Positions 3,257 to 57,883 of a stretch of DNA of 64,000 bases are shown one piece after another (position 1 is the first letter of the stretch; each line of letters starts with the position of its first letter). The DNA is taken from contig JBAZYF010000002.1 of NCBI GenBank assembly GCA_041659505.1, positions 51,966 through 115,965 of the forward strand. Direction: 5' to 3'. The position numbers and the translations under genes were made by a program. The notes under the pieces were generated by a model. The model saw nothing but the letters and a program-made list of their open reading frames with translations. It did no database searches and was not told the origin of the DNA. Source of the DNA: Parcubacteria group bacterium. Its GTDB lineage: Bacteria > Patescibacteriota > Minisyncoccia > Moranbacterales > UBA2206.

Positions 3257-4219
3257 ATGCCAAAAAAATCCATCAAGCTCCGGACTGTCTTTATGGGCAC
3301 GTCTTCTTTTGCCGATACGATTCTTACTGCGCTGATTGCAGAAAAATACAATCTCATCAGCGTCTACACCCAAACAGATAAGAAGGTCGGACGCGACCAA
3401 GCGTTGCAAAAGACCGCTGTCAAAATTACAGCTGAAAAAAACAAGATTCCAGTCTTTTCTCCGGCCAGATTTGGAGAGGAAGAAATCAAAGAATTGGCTG
3501 AGCAAAAACCAGACCTGGTCATCGTTGCAGCTTATGGGAAAATTCTGCCCCAAGCTGTCCTAGAACTGCCCGGCTTTGGCGCCATCAATGTGCACGCATC
3601 ACTTCTCCCTCATTATCGAGGACCATCACCGATCCAAAATGCCATTTTGGACAACGAAAAAGAAACTGGTGTCACTATAATGCTTATGGACACTGGCATT
3701 GATACAGGCGCGATTCTCAACCAGGAAAAAACCAAGATTGACCCGGATGAAACTAGTTCAGAACTTTCGGAAAAATTGGCCAAACTTTCAATTCCGTTGC
3801 TTCAAAAAACAATTGTGCTTTGGGTTGAAAGAGAAATCACGCCAAAACCGCAGGATGATAAACTAGCTACCCTCTGCCAACTAATTGAACGTGGTGATGG
3901 AAAAATAATCTGGATGAATGACTCCACAACAATCTATGACCAATATCGCGCATTTTACTCTTGGCCGGGAGTTTTTACTTATTGGCAACGAGGTGACGCC
4001 AATATGCGGTTAAAGATAAACAAACTTGCTCTGGGAAATACCGCTACGCTTGGCGAGCATTCTTTGGGAGAAGTTTTTGAGTCGGACGGTAAGATCGCGG
4101 TCCAATCTGGAGCCGGAGCGATTATTTTGGAGGAAGTACAACTAGAAGGTAAAAATAATTTAAAGATAAGAGATTTTATCAATGGAAATCCAAAATTCAT
4201 TGGAAGCGTTTTAAAATAA
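3257..4219 (+). CDS. fmt: methionyl-tRNA formyltransferase
   Basis: FMGTSSFA N-terminus, HASLLPHYRGPSPIQ motif; def-fmt synteny. Confidence 0.9.
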   Translation: MPKKSIKLRTVFMGTSSFADTILTALIAEKYNLISVYTQTDKKVGRDQALQKTAVKITAEKNKIPVFSPARFGEEEIKELAEQKPDLVIVAAYGKILPQAVLELPGFGAINVHASLLPHYRGPSPIQNAILDNEKETGVTIMLMDTGIDTGAILNQEKTKIDPDETSSELSEKLAKLSIPLLQKTIVLWVEREITPKPQDDKLATLCQLIERGDGKIIWMNDSTTIYDQYRAFYSWPGVFTYWQRGDANMRLKINKLALGNTATLGEHSLGEVFESDGKIAVQSGAGAIILEEVQLEGKNNLKIRDFINGNPKFIGSVLK

Positions 4220-4223
4220 ACTC

Positions 4224-5069
4224 ATGTTTAACTCTGATCAAGGGAAAGAAGAAAAAAATATCAAAGCAATTGCTATAGGGCTATTTCTAATTGCGCTAAT
4301 TTCGGCCATTACTATCTTTAAGTCAAATTCAGAAAAAAAAACATCTTTTAAAAACAACCAAGAAGCGGCTGTGGTCAAGCCAACAGAGATTGATCCAGCA
4401 AAGATCGGAAAAATTACATCAACTGAACTAGCAAAAAAAATTCAGACAAATCATGAGGAATTGATCCTTGTTGATTTTCGTGATACGAATAGCTACAAAA
4501 ATGAACACATCGTTGATTCGATCAATATGCCTGTTTCTGACATAGCTTCTTTTCCTCAGGTTGTAGCAAAAAACAAGACCTGCATATTGATCCAAAAGTC
4601 AGAAGAAATGATCCTTATTGGCGACATAGCCGATATCCTTTCGGCATTAGGTTACACTAACCTTTTCTATCTTGATGGTGGTTTTGAATCATGGAAAAAC
4701 AATTTCAATCCAACAATTAGCGATGGCGACCAAAACTCTTTCGCTGATCAAGCTAAAGTGAGATATATCACTAGTGATGATTTGAAAAGAATACTTGCTA
4801 CGGAGAAAAATCTAGTCATTATTGACGCACGAAAAAGCGATGAATTTAGTACTGGCCACATAGCCGCAGCAACCAATATTTTTCTAGATGATATAGAAAA
4901 AAGGAGAAAAGAACTCCCCCTGAATAAAACTATTATTATCTACACCGACACCGCCCTAGGAGCCTTCAAGGGCGCAGCAAGGTTGTTCGACTTGGGCTTT
5001 TCAAATACCTTTGCTCTTTCTGATGGATTAGACACTTGGAAAACTAAAGGCTATGAACTGACAAAATAA
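4224..5069 (+). CDS. membrane-anchored tandem rhodanese-domain protein (second domain lacks catalytic Cys)
   Basis: N-terminal TM helix; two rhodanese-like segments; only the first has a Cys at the active-site position. Confidence 0.55.
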   Translation: MFNSDQGKEEKNIKAIAIGLFLIALISAITIFKSNSEKKTSFKNNQEAAVVKPTEIDPAKIGKITSTELAKKIQTNHEELILVDFRDTNSYKNEHIVDSINMPVSDIASFPQVVAKNKTCILIQKSEEMILIGDIADILSALGYTNLFYLDGGFESWKNNFNPTISDGDQNSFADQAKVRYITSDDLKRILATEKNLVIIDARKSDEFSTGHIAAATNIFLDDIEKRRKELPLNKTIIIYTDTALGAFKGAARLFDLGFSNTFALSDGLDTWKTKGYELTK

Positions 5070-8228: not shown

Positions 8229-9044
8229 TTAAAAAACTTGTTTTTTAATTATCACTTTCTGACCCAAAATTTGAAAAATATTTTTCTGATAATGCTCGAC
8301 GAGATCGGAAAAATAATAAACATCTTGCTGGACCTTTTTTCCCTTACCGGAAAAAATCTTTTTTGTTCCTTGTGCAATCTCTTGAGCTGAGCTGATAATC
8401 TGCACGTCTTTCCCCAAATACCCCTCGATCATTCTTTTAAGCAAGGGATAATGAGTGCAACCGAGCACTAACATATTTAATCGCTTCTTCTTCAAGTCTT
8501 TCAGATATTTTTCCACGACCAGCTTAGTCACTTTTCCGCTCAGCAATCCTTCCTCGACTAAAGGCACAAAAAGCGGGCAAGCCCTGGAATAAACTTTCAT
8601 AACTTTATCCAACGCTTTAATCTTCTTAGCATATACTCCGCTGCCTATCGTGCCTCTCGTACCAATCACACCAATCTTCAATTTTCTTTTTAAAGACCTT
8701 TCTTTTTCAACTCGAGCGACCACAGGATCAATCACGTCATAAAAATTAATCTTGGGGTATTTTTTACGCAAAAAATCAGCGGCAAAGGTTGAGGCGGTAT
8801 TGCAAGCAATCACGATGTCTCTCGCTCCCCTTGAAATCAAAAATTCAGTGATTTCCACCGCATAGCCCCGGATCACATCCGAACTTTTGTCACCCCAAGG
8901 ATAGCGCGCCGAATCGCCAAAATAAACAATAGGACAATTTGGATTGGCCTTTTTGATTTCCTTAGCGACAGTCAGACCGCCAATTCCACTATCGAAAATT
9001 CCGATCATAAATTTGGCTTTATTGCGATTACTCGACGTCCCCAA
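8229..9044 (-). CDS. murI: glutamate racemase
   Basis: IGIFDSGIGGLTV, ACNTAS and LGCTHYP motifs. Confidence 0.9.
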   Translation of the reverse strand: MGTSSNRNKAKFMIGIFDSGIGGLTVAKEIKKANPNCPIVYFGDSARYPWGDKSSDVIRGYAVEITEFLISRGARDIVIACNTASTFAADFLRKKYPKINFYDVIDPVVARVEKERSLKRKLKIGVIGTRGTIGSGVYAKKIKALDKVMKVYSRACPLFVPLVEEGLLSGKVTKLVVEKYLKDLKKKRLNMLVLGCTHYPLLKRMIEGYLGKDVQIISSAQEIAQGTKKIFSGKGKKVQQDVYYFSDLVEHYQKNIFQILGQKVIIKKQVF

Positions 9045-21933: not shown

Positions 21934-21966
21934 ACTTTTTCCGCTACTCACAATAATTCATTCGTG

Positions 21967-22038
21967 AGCCGAAGATCGGAGTTGAACCGATAACCTACTG
22001 TTTACAAAACAGTTGCTCTGCCATTGAGCTACTTCGGC
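21967..22038 (-). tRNA. tRNA-Thr (anticodon TGT)
   Basis: acceptor GCCGAAG/CTTCGGC, D-arm GCTC-AATGGCA-GAGC, anticodon stem ACTGT/ACAGT with loop TTTGTAA, T-arm ATCGG-TTCAACT-CCGAT. Confidence 0.8.
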
Positions 22039-22063
22039 AATATATAATTTCCCCAAACCTTAA

Positions 22064-22132
22064 TAGCGCTACTATTTACAAAACAGTTGCTCCCTGCCTG
22101 CCGGCAGGCAGGTGCCACTCCGCTACTTCAGC
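22064..22132 (-). pseudogene. truncated duplicate of tRNA-Thr(TGT): 5' half only, 20-bp palindrome inserted in the D-loop
   Basis: GCTGAAGTAGC..GGAGTGGCA[CCTGCCTGCCGGCAGGCAGG]GAGCAACTGTTTTGTAAATAGTAG matches the first ~45 nt of the adjacent tRNA-Thr(TGT); no T-arm or 3' acceptor. Confidence 0.6.
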
Positions 22133-22171
22133 ATATCAAGCGCGAGTTAATTTCACGCTTTTTCTATTCTA

Positions 22172-24360: not shown

Positions 24361-24396
24361 CGCCGTAGTCCTGAGTACTCTTAGGACGAAGGAGGA
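24361..24396 (-). promoter_or_regulatory. conserved intergenic hairpin plus anti-SD-like motif upstream of tsf (copy 1 of 2)
   Basis: mRNA-strand GATCCTCCTTCG-GTCCTAAGAGTACTCAGGAC-TACGGCG; near-identical copy upstream of rpmJ. Confidence 0.5.
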
Positions 24397-25928: not shown

Positions 25929-25983
25929 TTTTATAAAGTTGTCGGTTTAGTGTCTCCTGACCTGAACCTCCTAATTCTTAGCT

Positions 25984-26028
25984 AGCTGATTAGAAATAAA
26001 AGGTTCAATTCGGGAGAATTGAACCGAC
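25984..26028 (+). repeat. 45-bp repeat with 10-bp-stem hairpin (GGTTCAATTC-GGGAG-AATTGAACC), copy A
   Basis: AGCTGATTAGAAATAAAAGGTTCAATTCGGGAGAATTGAACCGAC; exact inverted copy at 57819-57863. Confidence 0.7.
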
Positions 26029-27096: not shown

Positions 27097-27267
27097 GTGT
27101 CATTCCCGCGAAGGCGGGAATCCAGGTTCCACGAGCTATGAACTCCAGAAAATCGAACTACAAGTCTAACAAATTCTCTATTTTAGCAAGTCTTGAGTTT
27201 TAATAATTCGTTTTTTCTTTATATTAAGTCTGAGGTGCCTGGATCCCCGCCTTCGCGAGGATGACAC
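27097..27267. mobile_element. MITE-like palindromic element copy 1 (~170 bp, 30-bp hairpin terminal inverted repeats)
   Basis: left GTGTCATTCCCGCGAAGGCGGGAATCCAGG, right CCTGGATCCCCGCCTTCGCGAGGATGACAC; internal ~110 bp homologous to copies 2 and 3. Confidence 0.7.
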
Positions 27268-31033: not shown

Positions 31034-31066
31034 CACTGGATTCCCGCCTTCGCGGGAATGACAACT
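31034..31066. repeat. solo copy of the MITE terminal hairpin (CTGGATTCCCGCCTTCGCGGGAATGACAAC) in the rpsM-rpsK intergenic region
   Basis: matches the 30-bp TIR of the MITE family; a degenerate partial (TACCCGCCTTCGTAATT) lies ~45 bp upstream. Confidence 0.6.
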
Positions 31067-31690: not shown

Positions 31691-31726
31691 CGCCGTAGTT
31701 CTGAGTACCCTCAGAACGAAGGAGGA
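31691..31726 (-). promoter_or_regulatory. conserved intergenic hairpin plus anti-SD-like motif between infA and rpmJ (copy 2 of 2)
   Basis: mRNA-strand CTCCTCCTTCG-GTTCTGAGGGTACTCAGAAC-TACGGCG; 31/36 identical to the copy at 24361-24396. Confidence 0.5.
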
Positions 31727-32774: not shown

Positions 32775-34520
32775 ATGTCAACCGAACAAAAGAACGAAAA
32801 AATAGAAATATTGCGCCACTCGACTTCCCATGTCTTGGCGGCGGCGGTTTTGGAAATGTTTCCTGAGGCAAAATTTGCCATCGGTCCAGCCATCGAAAAT
32901 GGATTTTACTATGATTTCGATCTGCCAAGAACTCTTATTCCCGAAGATTTAGAAATTCTAGAAGAAAAGATGCGCGCCATCATCAAGGCCAATCATCCAT
33001 TTGAGCGAGCAGAAATTTCGATTGCGGAGGCAAGAGCGGATTTTGAAAAATTGGGGCAATTCTATAAAGTCGAATTGATCAATGACTTAGCCAAAGCGGG
33101 CAATGAAAATGTTTCGGTCTATAAGTCCGGCCCTTTCGTTGATCTTTGCTCGGGACCACACTTAGATTCCACCGGCGAAATTCCGGCCGACGGATTTAAA
33201 CTAACAAAAATTTCCGGCGCCTATTGGCGCGGGGATGAGAAAAATAAACAACTGCAACGGATATATGGCGTCGCCTTTTCCAATAAATCTGAATTGAAAG
33301 ATTATCTGCATATGATTGAAGAAGCGGAAAAAAGAAATCACGTCAAGCTCGGCAAAGAGTTAAGACTGTTTTCCACACATCCAGAAGGACCAGGTTTTCC
33401 ATTTATCCATCCCAAGGGCATGTTGATTTGGAATGAATTGATCGGATATTGGAAGGAAGAGCACACAAAAGAAGGTTACCAGGAGATAAGCACTCCAATC
33501 ATCTTGAACAAGGCTCTGTGGGAAAAAAGCGGACATTGGGATCACTACAAAGATAATATGTATTTTACCAAAATTGATGATGCTGATTATGCAGTAAAAC
33601 CGATGAACTGCCCGGGAGGAATTTTGGTCTATAAATCCGACCTGCACAGCTACAAAGAATTTCCCCTCAAACTGGCAGAAATCGGGCTGGTCCATCGCCA
33701 TGAACTTTCCGGAACTTTGAACGGCCTTTTCCGTGTGAGAATGTTTCGTCAGGATGACGCGCACATCTATTGTATGGAAAATCAGATCAAGGACGAGATT
33801 AAAAAGTTGATCGGCCTCATCGATAGGATCTATGGAACCTTTGGCCTTTCTTATCACATGGAACTCTCCACCCGTCCGGAAAACTCGACTGGCACCGATG
33901 AGATGTGGAAAACAGCGGAAAATTCCCTGAAAGAAGCGCTGGCGGAGATAAAAGCAGATTATAAATTAAATCCTGGCGATGGTGCTTTCTATGGACCAAA
34001 AATTGATTTTCACATCAAAGATGCCATCGGTCGCACCTGGCAATGCGGAACGATCCAGCTGGATTTTTCCATGCCGGAAAGATTCGAACTGACCTACATC
34101 GGAGAAGATGGAAAAGAACACCGTCCAGTCATGCTTCATCGAGTCATCTATGGCGCAGTCGAACGTTTTATGGGCATCCTCATCGAACACTATGCCGGCG
34201 CGTTCCCAACTTGGCTCTCTCCCGTCCAAGTTATGATCATCCCGATCTCTGAAAAATTCAATGACTATGCTAAATCTATCGGGACGCAATTCATTGCATC
34301 TAATGTCCGCGCCTCCATCGACGATTCTAACGAATCCCTCGGCAAACGCATCCGCCTGGCGGAAAAACAAAAAATCCCCTACATCTTGGTTGTAGGAGAA
34401 AAAGAAATGACCGACGGATCGGTTGCAGTTCGCAAACGTGGAGAAGAAAAGAAGCAGGAGATTTTGAAGGTTGACGAGTTTTTGGAGAATGTGAAAAAGG
34501 AAATTGAAGAAAAGAAATAA
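32775..34520 (+). CDS. thrS: threonine--tRNA ligase (lacks N-terminal TGS domain)
   Basis: second-site editing domain His motif (HSTSH), class II motifs (HRHELSGTLNGLFRVRMFRQDDAHIY), C-terminal anticodon-binding domain. Confidence 0.9.
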   Translation: MSTEQKNEKIEILRHSTSHVLAAAVLEMFPEAKFAIGPAIENGFYYDFDLPRTLIPEDLEILEEKMRAIIKANHPFERAEISIAEARADFEKLGQFYKVELINDLAKAGNENVSVYKSGPFVDLCSGPHLDSTGEIPADGFKLTKISGAYWRGDEKNKQLQRIYGVAFSNKSELKDYLHMIEEAEKRNHVKLGKELRLFSTHPEGPGFPFIHPKGMLIWNELIGYWKEEHTKEGYQEISTPIILNKALWEKSGHWDHYKDNMYFTKIDDADYAVKPMNCPGGILVYKSDLHSYKEFPLKLAEIGLVHRHELSGTLNGLFRVRMFRQDDAHIYCMENQIKDEIKKLIGLIDRIYGTFGLSYHMELSTRPENSTGTDEMWKTAENSLKEALAEIKADYKLNPGDGAFYGPKIDFHIKDAIGRTWQCGTIQLDFSMPERFELTYIGEDGKEHRPVMLHRVIYGAVERFMGILIEHYAGAFPTWLSPVQVMIIPISEKFNDYAKSIGTQFIASNVRASIDDSNESLGKRIRLAEKQKIPYILVVGEKEMTDGSVAVRKRGEEKKQEILKVDEFLENVKKEIEEKK

Positions 34521-35986
34521 TGCCACCAAAAACCTATTTTATCAAAACCTTCGGCTGTCAAATGAACATCTCGGATTCTGAAAGAATCGCCGGCCTCTTG
34601 GAAAGACCTCACCCCAACCCTCTCCTTAGTAAGGAGAGGGGGCTTAAATTAGCAAAAAATATTAACGAGGCAGATTTAGTTATTTTCAACACCTGCGGAA
34701 TCCGCCAAGCCGCGGAAAATAGAGCCTACAGCATTATTCATACCTTACGAAAATCACGACCAAAAATAAAAATTATTCTCACTGGCTGTCTCGCCAATCG
34801 CAAGGATGTTCAGGAAAGATTAAAAGATAAGGTTGATTTGTTTTGTGAAATTAAAGATTTTATAAAATTGGAAAATTGGATCATTAGAAATTGTTTAGAA
34901 ACCTTGCCTACCGGCAGGCAGGTTAGAAATTCGAAATTAGAAATTTTAGCACAAAAAGATGCTCTTCAGCGCGATAAAAATATAAACTATCTTTCCACTC
35001 TACCCAAGCATACCAACAAGCACCAAGCGCTTGTGCCGGTAATGACCGGCTGTAACAATTTCTGCTCCTATTGCGTCGTGCCATATGCTCGAGGACGAGA
35101 AGTTTCAAGGCCAGCTGAAGAAATAATCAACGAGATAAAAACTCTCATCAAAAACGGTTGCAGAGAAATAACGCTTTTGGGGCAGAATGTTAACTCATAC
35201 AATTACTCATCGCGCTCTAAATCCGAAGCCCTAGAAGCTAATGTGGTTTCTACACTAGATTCCCGCCTGCGCAGGAATGACAATAATACAATAACCTTTC
35301 CTAAACTGCTTCGAAAAATCGAAAAAATCCCCGGGCATTTTTGGATCCGGTTTATGTCGTCGCATCCGAAAGATTTTTCTGATGAACTCATTGAGACGAT
35401 TGCTAAATCAAAAAAGGTTTGCGAACACATTCATCTGCCGATCCAAGCTGGATCAGATAAGATTCTTGCTGCCATGAACCGCAAATATACCGCCCAACAC
35501 TATTTAGGTTTAATCAAAAAAATTCGCACTGCTTTCAAAAAGTTCAAACCCGATGCGCCCTATTCCATCACGTCAGATATTATTGTCGGTTTTCCTGGCG
35601 AAACCAAAAAAGATTTTCTCGAAACGGCAAGGATTATGGAAAAGGTAAAATACGACTTGGTCTATTTCGGCCAATTCTCTCCCCGCCCCGGCACAGTCGC
35701 TTGGAAATTGAAAGATAGTGTTTCAAAACAAGAAAAATCCCGCCGTGAAAAATATTTGAATGAAATTTTGGCTCGTACGACTTTTGCCAAGAATAAAAAA
35801 TATGTCGGTAAAATTTTGGAAGTTTTGGTAGACTCAGAAAAAAATGGATTTTATTTCGGACGCACTCGTTCAGGAAAAGATGTCAAAATAATCACCGACC
35901 AAAAAAACCTAACTGAGAAATTTGTAAAAGTTAAGATCACTAAGGCTAATATATGGAATCTAGAAGCTCGTTTGCTGGAAAAGTAG
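34520..35986 (+). CDS. miaB: tRNA methylthiotransferase MiaB with three in-frame palindromic-repeat insertions
   Basis: MTTase N-domain FGCQMN..DSE..NTCGIR, radical-SAM CNNFCSYC, C-terminal TRAM; inserts at 34618-34640, 34903-34922, 35256-35285. Confidence 0.8.
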   Translation: MPPKTYFIKTFGCQMNISDSERIAGLLERPHPNPLLSKERGLKLAKNINEADLVIFNTCGIRQAAENRAYSIIHTLRKSRPKIKIILTGCLANRKDVQERLKDKVDLFCEIKDFIKLENWIIRNCLETLPTGRQVRNSKLEILAQKDALQRDKNINYLSTLPKHTNKHQALVPVMTGCNNFCSYCVVPYARGREVSRPAEEIINEIKTLIKNGCREITLLGQNVNSYNYSSRSKSEALEANVVSTLDSRLRRNDNNTITFPKLLRKIEKIPGHFWIRFMSSHPKDFSDELIETIAKSKKVCEHIHLPIQAGSDKILAAMNRKYTAQHYLGLIKKIRTAFKKFKPDAPYSITSDIIVGFPGETKKDFLETARIMEKVKYDLVYFGQFSPRPGTVAWKLKDSVSKQEKSRREKYLNEILARTTFAKNKKYVGKILEVLVDSEKNGFYFGRTRSGKDVKIITDQKNLTEKFVKVKITKANIWNLEARLLEK

Positions 35987-37008
35987 GAAATAATAAAATA
36001 ATTGTCATTCTTGGCCCCACCTCCTCCGGAAAATCTTCCGTTGCGATTAAACTCGCCCAGAAATTTAATGGGGAAATCATTTCGGTAGACAGCCGACAGA
36101 TTTATCGTGGGATGGATATTGGAACGGGAAAAGTCACAAAAGCGGAGCAAGCACTCGCCAAGCATCATATGCTCGACGTTGTTGGTCCAAAAACTAATTT
36201 CAGCGCAGCGCAGTTCAAAAAATATGCAGAAAAAATAATTGCCGATATTTTGAAACGCGGAAAAGTTCCCATCCTCTGTGGCGGCACCGGTTTTTGGATC
36301 AAAGCTTTGGTCGATGATGTGATTTATCCTGAAGTAAAACCGGACTGGAAACTGCGAGAAGAATTAGGTAAAAAATCTGCAGAGCAACTTTTTGTGATGC
36401 TCAAAAAACTCGATCCGGTTCGCGCGAGAAATATTGATGCTAAAAATCCTGTCCGCCTAATCCGAGCGATTGAAATCTGCAAGACATTAGGCAAGGTACC
36501 ATTACCGATACGAAACAACGAAACAAATGCGAATCTGCGAACTAATTCACAAATTCGCAATTTCGTAGATTCGGATAAATTCGCCTGCCTGCCGGTAGGC
36601 AAGGCAGATTCGCATCGGTTTCATGATTTCCTGCAAATCGGAATTTCCTTGCCCAAGAAAAAACTGCACAAAAACATTGAAAAAAGACTGAAGCAAAGAT
36701 TCGGGGAAGGGATGATTGAAGAAGTGGAAAGATTGCACAGTGAGCAAAAAATCAGCTGGAAAAAAATGGAAAGTTTCGGCCTGGGTTATCTTTGGATTGC
36801 CAAATTCTTACAAAAACAACTCCCGAAAGAGGAGCTGTTTTCCAAAGTCTATTTTTCTGAAAAAGATTATGCTAAGCGCCAGATGACGTGGTTCGGGAAA
36901 GATGAGAGAATTATTTGGCTTGAGAAGTATAGTGAGATTGAAAAAAAAGTAGAAAAGTTTATACGTGTCATTCCCGCAAAGGCGGGAATCCAGGCACCTC
37001 AGGCTTAA
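35953..37008 (+). CDS. miaA: tRNA dimethylallyltransferase MiaA; in-frame palindrome insert; MITE-encoded C-terminus and stop
   Basis: P-loop GPTSSGKSS, ISVDSRQIYRGMDIGTGK; last 14 codons (RVIPAKAGIQAPQA) and stop lie inside the MITE left TIR. Confidence 0.8.
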   Translation: MESRSSFAGKVGNNKIIVILGPTSSGKSSVAIKLAQKFNGEIISVDSRQIYRGMDIGTGKVTKAEQALAKHHMLDVVGPKTNFSAAQFKKYAEKIIADILKRGKVPILCGGTGFWIKALVDDVIYPEVKPDWKLREELGKKSAEQLFVMLKKLDPVRARNIDAKNPVRLIRAIEICKTLGKVPLPIRNNETNANLRTNSQIRNFVDSDKFACLPVGKADSHRFHDFLQIGISLPKKKLHKNIEKRLKQRFGEGMIEEVERLHSEQKISWKKMESFGLGYLWIAKFLQKQLPKEELFSKVYFSEKDYAKRQMTWFGKDERIIWLEKYSEIEKKVEKFIRVIPAKAGIQAPQA

Positions 37009-37134
37009 TATAGGGAAAAACCAACTATTAAAATTCGAGACTTACTAAAATATAGAATTGATTGCACTTGTAATTCGAATTTCTAGATTCTATTACTGAA
37101 GGAACCTGGATTCCCGCCTTCGCGGGAATGACAC
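36965..37134. mobile_element. MITE-like palindromic element copy 2 (inverted relative to copy 1)
   Basis: TIRs GTGTCATTCCCGCAAAGGCGGGAATCCAGG / CCTGGATTCCCGCCTTCGCGGGAATGACAC; internal region ~80% identical to the reverse complement of copy 1. Confidence 0.7.
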
Positions 37135-44798: not shown

Positions 44799-44978
44799 GT
44801 GTCATTCCCGCGAAGGCGGGAATCCAGGCTCCACTAGTTATAAATTACGAACAATCAAATTATGAATCCTCTAACTTCCCTTTACTAACCAGTAAATTCT
44901 GTTTTTCTTTTGCTTGAAACCTGAGGTGTCTGGATCCCTGCCTTCGCGAGCCTGCCTGCCGGTAGGCAGGGATGACAC
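44799..44978. mobile_element. MITE-like palindromic element copy 3, with the 20-bp palindrome nested in its right TIR
   Basis: left TIR GTGTCATTCCCGCGAAGGCGGGAATCCAGG; right TIR CCTTCGCGAG[CCTGCCTGCCGGTAGGCAGG]GATGACAC split by the insert at 44951-44970. Confidence 0.7.
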
Positions 44979-47867: not shown

Positions 47868-48611
47868 TTATTCTGCTAACAGTATTGCTAACATTAGCCC
47901 GATTCCGACCAAAAAAGCAAGGACTTGCAGAATGCCTTTTTTCGCTTCATTGTGTTTGTGAAGTTCGGGAATCAGATCGGTTCCGGCGATATAAATAAAT
48001 CCACCTGCGGCAAACGGAACTAAAAAACCTTCTAATCCATCAATCTTCAAATCAAAACTCAGGATCAAGAGCGCGCCTGCCACTGCAGTCAATGCGCTTA
48101 GAAAATTCAAAAATAGGGCTTTTTTACGGGTAAAACCGCCATAAATCAATGACGCAAAATCACCAATTTCCTGCGGAATTTCATGAAAAATAACTGCCAC
48201 GGTTGTCGCGATTCCTACGGGAATACTGACTAAATAGCTCGCGCCGATGACCATTCCATCAACAAAATTATGCAGCGAATCACCCACAAGGATGATGTAG
48301 GAAAAAGGGTGTGGATGATCCGCGCAAGGTTCTTCATGGCAATGACGCCAATGAATCACCTTTTCCATGACAAAAAAAACCAAAATACCAAAAAGAATAA
48401 AGAGCGAAACTAGAACACTATTTTCAGAACCTTCATAAGCTTCAGGAATAAGATGAATAAACGCGTCACCCATTAAGGTCCCGGCCGAAAGGCTGACGAG
48501 ATAAATCAGATATTTATATAATTTTTTATGATCGATTGACAGCGTGAAAACGCCGATGAGTGAAATCAGACTGACGATAAAAACTGAAATTAAAGTATAA
48601 ATCCAAACCAT
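47868..48611 (-). CDS. ZIP-family metal transporter (ZupT-like)
   Basis: HNFVDGMVIGASY and HEIPQEIGDFASL motifs, 8 TM. Confidence 0.8.
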   Translation of the reverse strand: MVWIYTLISVFIVSLISLIGVFTLSIDHKKLYKYLIYLVSLSAGTLMGDAFIHLIPEAYEGSENSVLVSLFILFGILVFFVMEKVIHWRHCHEEPCADHPHPFSYIILVGDSLHNFVDGMVIGASYLVSIPVGIATTVAVIFHEIPQEIGDFASLIYGGFTRKKALFLNFLSALTAVAGALLILSFDLKIDGLEGFLVPFAAGGFIYIAGTDLIPELHKHNEAKKGILQVLAFLVGIGLMLAILLAE

Positions 48612-48743
48612 AACAAAATCAAAATTTAAAAATCAAAAATCAAAATGACAATTCAAAATACAAAATTAAATAATTTTATTCATTTTAAATTTTTATCTGT
48701 CATTTTTCATTTTGAGATTTGCATTTTTCATTATTCTATTTTT

Positions 48744-57818: not shown

Positions 57819-57863
57819 GTCGGTTCAATTCTCCCGAATTGAACCTTTTATTTCTAATCAGCT
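57819..57863 (-). repeat. 45-bp hairpin repeat, copy B (inverted relative to copy A)
   Basis: minus strand reads AGCTGATTAGAAATAAAAGGTTCAATTCGGGAGAATTGAACCGAC, identical to 25984-26028. Confidence 0.7.
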
Positions 57864-57883
57864 AAATTAAACTGGATATTTTC

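What the first reader, a model, noticed from the sequence alone, without database searches (positions are those of the whole stretch)
34520..37134. Palindromic repeats inserted in-frame in the essential tRNA-modification genes miaB and miaA (RPE-like behaviour)
MiaB keeps its catalytic motifs but contains three different palindromic sequences inserted in frame. They are CCCTCTCCTTAGTAAGGAGAGGG (34618-34640, peptide ..PHPNPLLSKERGL..), the 20-bp palindrome CCTTGCCTACCGGCAGGCAGG (34903-34922, ..TLPTGRQV..) and the MITE-TIR hairpin CTAGATTCCCGCCTGCGCAGGAATGACAAT (35256-35285, ..LDSRLRRNDNN..). MiaA has the 20-bp palindrome in frame at 36583-36608 (..FACLPVGKAD..). Its last 14 codons and stop (RVIPAKAGIQAPQA*) are encoded by the left TIR of MITE copy 2. 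The same elements occur intergenically elsewhere in the window, so they are mobile or propagated repeats that tolerate in-frame residence, like Rickettsia palindromic elements. I am not aware of this being described for this kind of low-GC reduced genome.
Basis: seen in the sequence. Interest (0 to 1): 0.8.

Follow-up and report, generated by a model that had tools for sequence, protein, structure and literature searches.

The report
Tiny mobile palindromes nested inside essential genes
Two tRNA-modification genes of a reduced-genome bacterium (Moranbacteria, candidate phyla radiation) carry several small mobile palindromic DNA elements, some nested inside one another, inserted in frame in flexible loops; one is a 20/21-base palindrome found across many bacterial phyla and another is the hairpin cut by the recently described Ssn nucleases.

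Summary
Orthologue alignments and nucleotide-level empty sites show that every flagged segment of MiaB and MiaA is a lineage-specific insertion. All fall in loops or linkers that are gaps in solved structures and low-confidence coil in AlphaFold models, while the catalytic motifs and folds are intact. The RPE-like reading is therefore supported.

The anatomy is richer than reported:
- P1 is a 36-nt "box + hairpin" module.
- P2 is a 20-nt perfect palindrome in two non-coding sites, but 21 nt in three coding sites. In miaB it sits inside a heptamer array and in miaA inside a ~95-nt palindromic element.
- P3 matches 27/28 positions of the Neisseria NTS/dRS3 motif, the ssDNA target of GIY-YIG Ssn nucleases. 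The "MITEs" are NIME-like units without target duplications.

P1, P2 and P3 also occur in unrelated phyla and on viral contigs. P2 has unrelated flanks, no target duplication and no linked gene. I found no description of this in CPR bacteria, and none of P2.

The mobilising machinery is unknown, and translation of the inserts is inferred, not shown. Verdict: a new variant of a known kind; interest 0.66.

The parts
34520..35986 (+). miaB coding sequence (488 aa), host of P1, the heptamer array with P2-21, and the P3 insert
   Evidence: ORF; Pfam Radical_SAM, UPF0004, TRAM; cluster cysteines invariant; model matches 7MJZ, TM 0.85
34606..34642 (+). P1 module: box ACCTCACCCC + AA + hairpin CCCTCTCCTT-AGT-AAGGAGAGGG (+GG); translated as PHPNPLLSKERG
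   Evidence: hairpin -10.5 kcal/mol; 10-residue gap versus 7MJZ
34867..34950 (+). In-frame heptamer array (ATTGGAA..TTAGAAA TTAGAAA TTCGAAA TTAGAAA..) in the linker between the N-terminal and radical-SAM domains; absent from L003 and many orthologues
   Evidence: pLDDT <50 for residues 128-155
34902..34922 (+). P2, 21-nt form CCTTGCCTACCGGCAGGCAGG, inserted on a heptamer-unit boundary; translated as LPTGRQV
   Evidence: exact 21-nt empty site in L001
35201..35296 (+). Variable in-frame insert at MiaB site 3 (residues ~228-259), shared with L002 and L003; L001 carries a different palindrome at this site
   Evidence: 21-residue gap versus 7MJZ; pLDDT <50 for residues 235-253
35255..35282 (-). 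NTS/dRS3-like hairpin (TGTCATTCCTGCGCAGGCGGGAATCTAG on the minus strand; 2 mismatches to the NTS consensus), translated as LDSRLRRND
   Evidence: weakened hairpin -3.2 kcal/mol
35953..37008 (+). miaA coding sequence (351 aa), host of P5 with nested P2-21, and of the element-derived C-terminal tail
   Evidence: ORF; Pfam IPPT; model matches 2ZM5, TM 0.82
36505..36618 (+). P5: ~93-nt inverted-repeat element (TGCGAATCTGCGAA ... TTCGTAGATTCG / GCAGATTCGCA) in frame in MiaA, conserved at DNA level in L442 and L443; now 114 nt because of the nested P2
   Evidence: pLDDT <50 for residues 190-221
36584..36604 (-). P2, 21-nt form (reverse complement of the miaB copy), translated as (A)CLPVGK(A)
   Evidence: exact 21-nt empty sites in L442 and L443
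36963..37134 (+). NIME-like unit ('MITE copy 2'): NTS hairpins at 36966-36993 (+) and 37106-37133 (-) flanking ~110 bp; supplies the last 14 codons and the stop of miaA
   Evidence: orthologous copy at the miaA 3' end in L001
27097..27267 (+). NIME-like unit 1, intergenic
31036..31063 (-). Solo NTS-like hairpin, intergenic, just downstream of rpsM
44799..44978 (+). NIME-like unit 3, intergenic, with P2 (20-nt form) nested in its right end
44951..44970 (.). P2, 20-nt form CCTGCCTGCCGGTAGGCAGG, a clean 20-nt insertion relative to the right end of unit 1 (CGCGAG|GATGACAC)
22093..22112 (.). P2, perfect 20-nt palindrome, a clean 20-nt insertion in the D-loop of a tRNA-Thr(TGT) 5' fragment lying ~30 nt upstream of the intact tRNA-Thr (21966-22038)

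Best explanation
miaB and miaA of this Moranbacteria genome have been colonised repeatedly by at least five kinds of small non-autonomous repeat:
- P1, a 36-nt box-plus-hairpin module.
- P2, a 20/21-nt palindrome.
- P3, an NTS/dRS3-type hairpin, found both alone and as the ends of ~170-bp NIME-like units.
- A TTAGAAA heptamer array.
- P5, a ~95-nt palindromic element.

Shown: these are insertions relative to orthologues. They are nested (P2 inside the heptamer array, inside P5, inside a NIME end, and inside P1 in a relative). They keep the reading frame without stop codons. They lie in loops, linkers or the C-terminus, outside the conserved core.

Inferred: the inserts are transcribed and translated as extra surface loops, and the enzymes remain functional. 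Selection acts as a filter: only insertions whose length is a multiple of three, that lack stops, and that fall in structurally permissive sites survive in essential genes. This filter explains the three MiaB 'hot spots' that carry different elements in different lineages. It also explains why P2 is 21 nt in the three coding sites with empty-site comparisons but 20 nt in the two non-coding ones.

Inferred with lower confidence (~0.35): the elements move as single-stranded DNA hairpins through trans-acting nucleases or recombinases, without target duplication. For P3 the obvious candidate partner is an Ssn-type GIY-YIG ssDNA nuclease, the family shown to cut NTS. For P2 no partner gene is evident. 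Its 7-fold enrichment at the apex of other hairpins, and its association with heptamer arrays, suggest insertion into transiently single-stranded, structure-prone DNA.
For: - Gaps exactly at the inserts in close orthologues.
- Nucleotide-level empty sites for P2 in miaB and in miaA.
- Clean 20-nt insertions of P2 in a tRNA fragment and in a NIME end.
- A 21-nt P2-like insert nested in P1 in L244.
- P1 is 39/39 identical between genes that are 72% identical.
- The MiaA tail is shared only with L001.
- Element-derived peptides are sporadic among the 120 closest orthologues of each protein.
- The inserts are gaps versus 7MJZ and low-pLDDT coil, in models whose cores match solved MiaB and MiaA.
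- Catalytic residues are invariant.
- P2 occurs in >120 genome stretches from many phyla with unrelated flanks and in 48 viral stretches.
- P2 shows no target duplication.
- Hairpin-apex enrichment is 12% against 1.9%.
- 20-mers are depleted in open frames (ratio to control 0.45/0.30), whereas 21-mers are near random (0.90/0.70); Fisher p = 7e-6 and 2e-4.
- The extra base of the 21-mer is T in 118/124 copies, and 21% of 21-mers lie in 7-nt-periodic sequence against 0.2% of random sequence.
- P3 matches the NTS consensus with 1-2 mismatches (consensus and Ssn cleavage from PMC11893778; NIME definition from PMC1797815).
Against: - Translation of the inserts and activity of the enzymes are not shown; there are no proteomic or RNA data.
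- The 20-versus-21 contrast is not absolute. In GC-rich viral loci 20-mers are only mildly depleted in open frames (ratio 0.65-0.70). An exact 20-mer also sits in frame in a Saccharibacteria FtsK, and how the frame is kept there could not be resolved.
- The empty-site length comparison rests on only 3 coding and 2 non-coding cases.
- Only 12% of P2 copies sit at a clear hairpin apex.
- No GIY-YIG/ssnA ORF was found in the window or in neighbouring loci, and no gene family recurs next to P2, so the mobilisation step has no direct support.
- P1 occupies the same site in several orthologues. This could reflect one old insertion with losses, or recombination, instead of repeated insertion.
Confidence: 0.8

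Rival explanations
1. The elements are not merely tolerated parasites but are kept for a function at the DNA or RNA level. For example, NTS/dRS3-type hairpins may serve as Ssn nuclease sites that modulate recombination of incoming DNA around these genes, as in Neisseria. Alternatively, the hairpins may affect mRNA stability or translation.
For: - NTS repeats cluster around particular genes and modulate transformation in N. meningitidis (PMC11893778).
- NIME arrays correlate with sequence diversity in flanking genes (PMC1797815).
- P1 keeps a strong hairpin (-10.5 kcal/mol) and identical DNA in diverged orthologues.
- Three MiaB sites and one MiaA site are repeatedly occupied.
Against: - The coding copies of P2 and P3 have weakened hairpins (-3.5 against -8.0 and -3.2 against -8.9 kcal/mol), as expected for decay and not for maintenance.
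- Presence is sporadic among close relatives.
- No Ssn gene was found nearby.
- Competence and an Ssn system are unverified in this organism.
Confidence: 0.12
2. The inserts are removed or skipped at the RNA or translation level (intron-like excision or translational bypass), so the proteins do not contain them.
For: - The elements form hairpins.
- CPR bacteria are known for insertions in rRNA genes (my own background knowledge, not tested here).
- P2 occurs in tRNA-like fragments.
Against: - Every insert in miaB and miaA preserves the frame and lacks stops, which excision would not require.
- P2 is 21 nt at the three coding sites with empty-site comparisons and 20 nt at the two non-coding ones.
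- 20-mers are depleted in open frames.
- No Rfam intron or ribozyme family matches the region.
- The tRNA copies are fragments, not intact genes.
Confidence: 0.05
3. The segments are ordinary fast-evolving linker peptides, or artefacts (assembly chimeras, pseudogenes), that look palindromic by chance.
For: The sites are length-variable loops in the family. The sequence comes from a metagenome-assembled genome.
Against: - Exact multi-copy recurrence, with 0 matches expected by chance.
- Identical proteins recovered from several independent sources (P0001 and P0121).
- The same elements in cultured isolates and in many phyla.
- Intact ORFs with invariant catalytic residues.
- Clean empty sites.
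Confidence: 0.03

Closest known systems
Rickettsia palindromic elements (RPEs)
   Same: Dispersed palindromic repeats that sit in frame inside unrelated, often essential, genes and also in RNA genes. They add peptide segments compatible with the fold (PMC10969869). R. bellii has 526 copies, 53 in protein genes and one in tmRNA (PMC1458961).
   Different: RPEs are ~100-150 bp and were described in Rickettsia, whereas P1 and P2 here are 36 and 20/21 nt and the host is a CPR bacterium. Here several unrelated families are nested within one another. Sequence relatedness to the RPE consensi was not tested. The Ssn paper lists Rickettsia among SRM-rich genera, so a link between RPEs and P3-type hairpins is possible but unverified.
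Neisseria NTS / dRS3 repeats, NIMEs and Ssn-related motifs (SRM)
   Same: The P3 hairpins match the 28-nt NTS consensus CGTCATTCCCGCGMAVGCGGGAATCYRG with 1-2 mismatches and contain the dRS3 core ATTCCC-N8-GGGAAT (PMC11893778). The ~170-bp units have the NIME layout, a short RS segment between inverted dRS3 (PMC1797815). BLAST finds the same hairpin in Neisseria, Azospirillum and Photobacterium.
   Different: NIMEs are described as intergenic, and the 2007 paper regarded them as Neisseria-specific. Here a copy lies in frame inside miaB and another supplies the C-terminus of MiaA, in Patescibacteria. No ssnA gene was found in the sequence available.
Cyanobacterial small dispersed repeats (SDR; Elhai et al. 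2008, Genome Res 18:1484)
   Same: Very small (~20 nt) dispersed modules regarded as mobile, with precise insertion inside another palindrome (SDR5 inside HIP1, as cited in PMC4390886). This is the closest analogue for P2's size, nesting and lack of a coding capacity.
   Different: The paper itself could not be read here, so this comparison rests on citing papers and on my memory. P2 was found in many non-cyanobacterial phyla and on viral contigs, has a 20/21-nt dimorphism, and its sequence was not found in the searchable literature.
REP / REPIN elements with RAYT transposases
   Same: Short hairpin-forming repeats thought to be mobilised in trans by an HUH (Y1) enzyme acting on single-stranded DNA, without target duplication (PMC3116915, PMC3733652).
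   Different: REPs are extragenic, are usually specific to a species or genus, carry a GTAG/CGTC tag at one end, and are linked to a RAYT gene. P2 is intragenic as well as intergenic, is identical across phyla, lacks a terminal tag, and has no recurrent neighbouring gene.

Membership tests
Rickettsia palindromic elements (RPE) | Dispersed multi-copy palindromic repeat | tested here: met
   P2 has 4 copies and P3 has 7 in the window, with 0 expected by chance. P1 is single-copy in the window but dispersed elsewhere.
Rickettsia palindromic elements (RPE) | In-frame residence in protein-coding genes at positions compatible with the fold | tested here: met
Rickettsia palindromic elements (RPE) | Element length ~100-150 bp and sequence similarity to an RPE family consensus | not tested
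   No RPE consensus was available in the tools. P5 (~95 nt) and the NIME-like units (~170 bp) are of comparable size, but P1 and P2 are far smaller.
NTS / dRS3 / SRM (Ssn-related motif) | dRS3 core ATTCCC-N8-GGGAAT | tested here: met
   Five exact copies in the window. The miaB copy has AGGAAT in place of GGGAAT.
NTS / dRS3 / SRM (Ssn-related motif) | Oriented 28-nt NTS consensus CGTCATTCCCGCGMAVGCGGGAATCYRG | tested here: met
   Six copies have 1-2 mismatches and one has 4. Consensus from PMC11893778.
NTS / dRS3 / SRM (Ssn-related motif) | Genome encodes a cd10448 GIY-YIG Ssn nuclease, typically flanked by the motif | tested here: inconclusive
   None found in the 64-kb window or the related loci by motif scan and Pfam.
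NTS / dRS3 / SRM (Ssn-related motif) | Strand-specific cleavage of the single-stranded motif by the cognate Ssn | not testable with these tools
   Biochemical assay required
Neisserial intergenic mosaic elements (NIME) | RS segment of ~50-150 bp flanked by inverted dRS3 | tested here: met
   Units at 27097-27267, 36963-37134 and 44799-44978. Definition from PMC1797815.
Neisserial intergenic mosaic elements (NIME) | Intergenic location, in arrays | tested here: not met
   The units are isolated, one overlaps the miaA 3' end, and a solo hairpin lies inside miaB.
Classical MITE | Terminal inverted repeats | tested here: met
   28-35-nt inverted ends
Classical MITE | Target-site duplication and a related autonomous IS | tested here: not met
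   No duplication at the ends of the three units, nor for P2. No transposase was identified.
Cyanobacterial small dispersed repeats (SDR) | ~20-27-nt dispersed module, present or absent at orthologous sites, inserted precisely within other repeats | tested here: met
   The feature is taken from PMC4390886 and from memory of Elhai 2008.
Cyanobacterial small dispersed repeats (SDR) | Sequence identity to one of the SDR1-8 families | not tested
   Paper not held
REP / REPIN-RAYT | Terminal GTAG/CGTC tag, extragenic location, linked RAYT gene | tested here: not met
   P2 has no terminal tag, many copies lie in ORFs, and no recurrent neighbouring gene was found.

The most novel reading that the evidence does not exclude
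P2 (CCTGCCTGCCGGCAGGCAGG) represents an undescribed class of ultra-small mobile element shared across more than ten bacterial phyla and their viruses. It is a 20-nt palindrome with no coding capacity, no target duplication and no linked gene. It inserts into other hairpins, into itself, into tRNA-like fragments and into heptamer arrays. It also exists as a discrete 21-nt isoform (an extra T in 95% of copies) whose length, three heptamers or seven codons, lets it persist inside essential genes. Together with P1 and the NTS-type hairpins, it would form a pan-bacterial pool of hairpin parasites that remodel protein loops, with CPR genomes as heavily colonised hosts.
Probability: 0.35. Interest if true: 0.85.

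Novelty: new variant of a known kind. Interest (0 to 1): 0.66.

Why it matters
CPR/Patescibacteria genomes are small and gene-dense, yet here their essential tRNA-modification enzymes, and an FtsK in a Saccharibacteria genome, carry layered mobile DNA in their loops. This has several consequences:
1. It explains part of the puzzling length variation and the 'low-complexity' inserts in CPR proteins.
2. Peptides such as LPAGRQ, PLLxKERG, DSRLRGND and VIPAKAGIQ in annotated proteins can be repeat-derived.
3. It extends the host range and the genomic contexts of the newly characterised NTS/Ssn system to CPR bacteria and to coding sequence.
4. It exposes a 20/21-nt palindrome, identical across phyla, whose mode of spread is unknown. 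That makes an old question directly testable: how very small repeats without coding capacity move between sites and between lineages.

Tried and rejected
- Looked for a mobilising gene next to P2 by clustering 3,729 ORFs from 288 P2-containing loci. Only generic families recur: histidine kinases, phage portal proteins, ABC-F, ValRS, EF-G.
- Looked for an ssnA/GIY-YIG ORF in the window, in neighbouring small ORFs of related loci, and as NTS-ORF-NTS units in 120 NTS-bearing viral loci. None found.
- Tested the idea that the TTAGAAA flanks of P2 in miaB are a target duplication. Rejected: they belong to a pre-existing heptamer array that is intact in L001.
- Tested whether P2-bearing tRNA sequences are interrupted functional tRNAs by deleting P2 and running ARAGORN. 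They are 5' fragments next to intact tRNAs, except for one overlapping call in L047.
- Rfam at gathering and at permissive thresholds finds no curated family. The only matches are weak, meaningless plant-miRNA hits caused by the inverted repeat.
- Tried to determine how an exact 20-mer keeps the frame in FtsK (L021). The loop length is too variable among homologues, so this is inconclusive.
- Literature searches for the sequences, for their peptides, for CPR plus in-frame palindromes, and for Patescibacteria plus MITE returned nothing relevant. The Elhai 2008 paper could not be retrieved.
- DNA for P0019 could not be fetched.

Full report
**Context.** The window comes from a low-GC (41%) Patescibacteria genome. 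The closest named relatives of its MiaB and MiaA are Candidatus Moranbacteria/Moraniibacteriota MAGs. The locus is thrS (32775-34520), miaB (34520-35986), miaA (35953-37008) and gatB on the opposite strand. Both proteins have the expected Pfam domains. Their catalytic residues are invariant in alignments with 25-27 orthologues: the three N-terminal cluster cysteines and CNNFCSYC in MiaB, and the GPTSSGKS P-loop in MiaA.

**Checking the observation.** None is expected by chance (0 matches in 100 shuffles each).
- Correction 1: the '20-bp palindrome' inside miaB and miaA is 21 nt long and imperfect. The genuine 20-nt palindrome occurs at two non-coding sites, 22093-22112 and 44951-44970.
- Correction 2: palindrome 1 has no second copy in the window, so the statement that all elements recur intergenically in the window is only partly true.

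**Are they insertions?** Yes.
- Protein level, MiaB: PHPNPLLSKERG, LPTGRQV and the NYSSRSKSE...LDSRLRRNDNN segment each fall in columns that are gaps in many orthologues of 63-80% identity.
- Protein level, MiaA: ACLPVGK and the C-terminal RVIPAKAGIQAPQA behave the same way.
- DNA level, miaB: L001 reads ...TGTTTAGAAA|TTAGAAATT... with near-identical flanks, and the window has exactly 21 nt inserted at the bar.
- DNA level, miaA: L442 and L443 read ...AAATTCG|TAGATTCGAATCGG, and the window again has exactly 21 extra nt.
- P1 is identical over 39 nt between the window and L245, although the two genes are 72% identical (p about 3e-6).
- The MiaA tail comes from a ~170-bp inverted-repeat unit. 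That unit is orthologous in L001 and absent from L002, L003 and all other listed orthologues.
- Among the 120 best hits of each protein the element-derived peptides are sporadic. P1 occurs in 7 MiaB. P2 occurs in 3 MiaB, at three different sites. P3 occurs in 3 MiaB. The window protein is the only MiaA with any of them.

**Where they sit in the proteins.**
- Against solved B. uniformis MiaB (7MJZ), P1 and the P3 segment are clean 10- and 21-residue gaps.
- In the AlphaFold model of MiaB, residues 128-155 (heptamer array plus P2) and 235-253 (P3) have pLDDT below 50, and the P1 block drops to 57. All are coil between well-predicted elements.
- In MiaA the low-confidence coil is 190-221 (P5 plus P2) and 342-348 (the tail).
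- The models superpose on 7MJZ (target-normalised TM 0.85) and on the MiaA-tRNA complex 2ZM5 (0.82).
- The inserts therefore occupy loops, an inter-domain linker and the C-terminus.

1. P1 is an oriented module: ACCTCACCCC, 2-4 variable nt, then the hairpin CCCTCTCCTT-NNN-AAGGAGAGGG. This layout appears in either orientation in 28 IMG/VR stretches, with five copies in one 7-kb contig.
2. P2 in miaB lies exactly on a unit boundary of a TTAGAAA heptamer array. The array is itself an in-frame insertion lacking in L003 and many other orthologues.
3. P2 in miaA lies inside P5. P5 is a ~95-nt inverted-repeat element conserved at DNA level in three genomes whose MiaA proteins are only ~60% identical.
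4. In L244 a 21-nt P2-like sequence is nested inside P1.
5. In the window a 20-nt P2 is nested in the right end of the unit at 44799-44978, and another lies in the D-loop of a tRNA-Thr 5' fragment. Both are clean 20-nt insertions relative to paralogous sequence.
6. Other orthologues carry quite different repeat-derived peptides at the same MiaB and MiaA sites.

**P3 is a known family.** BLAST of one ~170-bp unit hit multi-copy hairpins in Neisseria, Azospirillum, Photobacterium and a Microcystis phage.
- The literature defines dRS3 as ATTCCC-N8-GGGAAT and NIMEs as RS segments flanked by inverted dRS3 (PMC1797815).
- The 28-nt NTS, CGTCATTCCCGCGMAVGCGGGAATCYRG, is cut on single-stranded DNA by the GIY-YIG nuclease SsnA. 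Related 'SRM' motifs and Ssn genes are spread across phyla (PMC11893778).
- Six window copies match NTS with 1-2 mismatches, including the miaB copy, and a seventh matches with 4.
- The 'MITEs' are thus NIME-like units, and they show no target duplication.
- I found no Ssn-like ORF in the sequence available, so linkage to an Ssn in this organism is untested.

**P2 is the surprise.**
The hosts include Nitrospirota, Chloroflexota, Bacteroidota (with cultured isolates), Planctomycetota, Omnitrophota, Saccharibacteria, WWE3, Gammaproteobacteria and Bdellovibrionota. About 4 matches would be expected by chance, by my own estimate. It also occurs in 48 viral stretches.
- The flanks are unrelated, so the unit is the 20-mer itself.
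- There is no target duplication and no recurrent neighbouring gene.
- Copies are nested in other copies, and are 7-fold enriched at the apex of unrelated hairpins (12% against 1.9%; p = 1e-7).
The extra base is T in 118 of 124 copies, so the 21-mer is a discrete variant. It usually lies between A and T, and 21% of copies sit in 7-nt-periodic sequence, against 0.2% of random sequence and 3% of 20-mers.
- The canonical 20-mer has no stop codon in any frame.

**Frame constraint.**
- In loci of similar GC content, 20-mers are depleted from open frames: 35% against 79% of random windows at 30 or more codons on both sides, and 19% against 65% at 50 or more. The 21-mers are near random, at 66% against 73% and 43% against 62% (Fisher p = 7e-6 and 2e-4).
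- All three coding sites with empty-site comparisons are 21 nt, and both non-coding ones are 20 nt.
- This argues that the inserts are read by the ribosome.
- The contrast is not absolute. In GC-rich viral loci the 20-mer depletion is mild, with a ratio to control of 0.65-0.70.
- An exact 20-mer also sits in frame in the motor domain of a Saccharibacteria FtsK and is absent from its 40 closest homologues. How the frame is kept there could not be resolved.
- Coding copies of P2 and P3 have weaker hairpins than non-coding ones, consistent with decay or relaxed structure after insertion.

**Interpretation.**
- The best-supported account is repeated insertion of several families of small hairpin elements, followed by selective filtering for frame, absence of stops and structurally permissive sites. 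Existing inserts act as landing pads for later ones.
- Membership differs. P3 belongs to the NTS/dRS3/SRM family. P2 is most like cyanobacterial small dispersed repeats, known to me only through citing papers (PMC4390886, PMC3116915). P1 has the box-plus-hairpin layout of nuclease-recognised motifs but has no named family that I could find.
- The mobilisation mechanism is inferred only. I favour trans-acting ssDNA nucleases or recombinases acting on hairpins, on three grounds: the absence of target duplications, the hairpin-apex preference, and the Ssn precedent for P3.

**Novelty.** Searches for CPR or Patescibacteria with in-frame palindromes or MITEs, and for the sequences or peptides themselves, found nothing. 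The phenomenon is a known kind, in-frame palindromic repeats. It appears here in a new host group, with much smaller and nested elements, with a new context for NTS, and with an apparently undescribed pan-phylum 20/21-nt palindrome.

**Limits.**
- Only 64 kb of the genome was available.
- The collection scans were truncated at 120 rows.
- The open-frame measure is a proxy for coding.
- Expression of the inserts and enzyme function were not tested.

Noticed in passing
window 22040-22133 (minus strand); L047 ~3568-3800; L024 ~3980-4250; L055 ~2070-2170: A tRNA 5' fragment (through the anticodon arm) carries P2 in its D-arm and lies ~30 nt upstream of the intact tRNA of the same identity: Thr-TGT in the window and Val-TAC in L047. 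L024 and L055 show similar D-arm fragments with P2. Unexplained: it could be a decayed duplicate, an att remnant, or a by-product of insertion.
   Followed up: partly
window 25983-26028 and 57819-57864: A perfect 46-nt inverted repeat, both copies intergenic and 31.8 kb apart, containing the hairpin GGTTCAATTC-GGGAG-AATTGAACC. It brackets the whole region that includes thrS, miaB and miaA.
   Followed up: no
window 48599-48743: Two back-to-back intergenic heptamer arrays (CAAAATT about 8 copies, then TTCATTT about 9 copies), of the same kind of 7-nt periodic sequence that hosts P2 elsewhere.
   Followed up: no
window 24361-24396 and 31691-31726: A 36-nt repeat (89% identical) made of a hairpin followed by GAAGGAGGA, probably a shared 5' leader with a Shine-Dalgarno sequence upstream of two operons.
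   Followed up: no
L001 ~8290-8335 (right end of the unit at the miaA 3' end): The orthologue of the window's unit 2 carries an extra ~25-nt insertion inside the loop of its right NTS hairpin. This is another case of insertion into a hairpin.
   Followed up: no
MiaA orthologues P0151, P0168, P0237, P0161, P0200 (alignment A2, columns ~230-285): At the same hypervariable MiaA site, other Moranbacteria carry peptides beginning 'CH' (CHCERSEAI, CHSDRPALRGAEES, CHTELVSGS, CHPKLACLSN). These would be encoded by TGTCAT..., the 5' box of other Ssn-related-motif hairpins, which suggests that many SRM variants enter this loop.
   Followed up: no
L021 4489-6654 (Saccharibacteria MAG CAYXSS010000012.1): An FtsK-type DNA translocase carries the exact 20-nt P2 in frame (NLPAGRQA) just upstream of the Walker-B motif. 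The segment is absent from the 40 closest homologues.
   Followed up: partly
L339 (13 copies), L333 (3 copies at 155-nt spacing), L335 (5 copies): NTS-type hairpins occur in regular arrays on IMG/VR contigs derived from isolate genomes, resembling NIME arrays outside Neisseria.
   Followed up: no
L001 4680-4720 within miaB (site 3): Where the window has the NTS-type insert, L001 has a different perfect palindrome: GACATCAAATGTCCAT-cat-GGACATTTGATGTC, translated as TSNVHHGHLMS. A similar peptide occurs in P0035.
   Followed up: no
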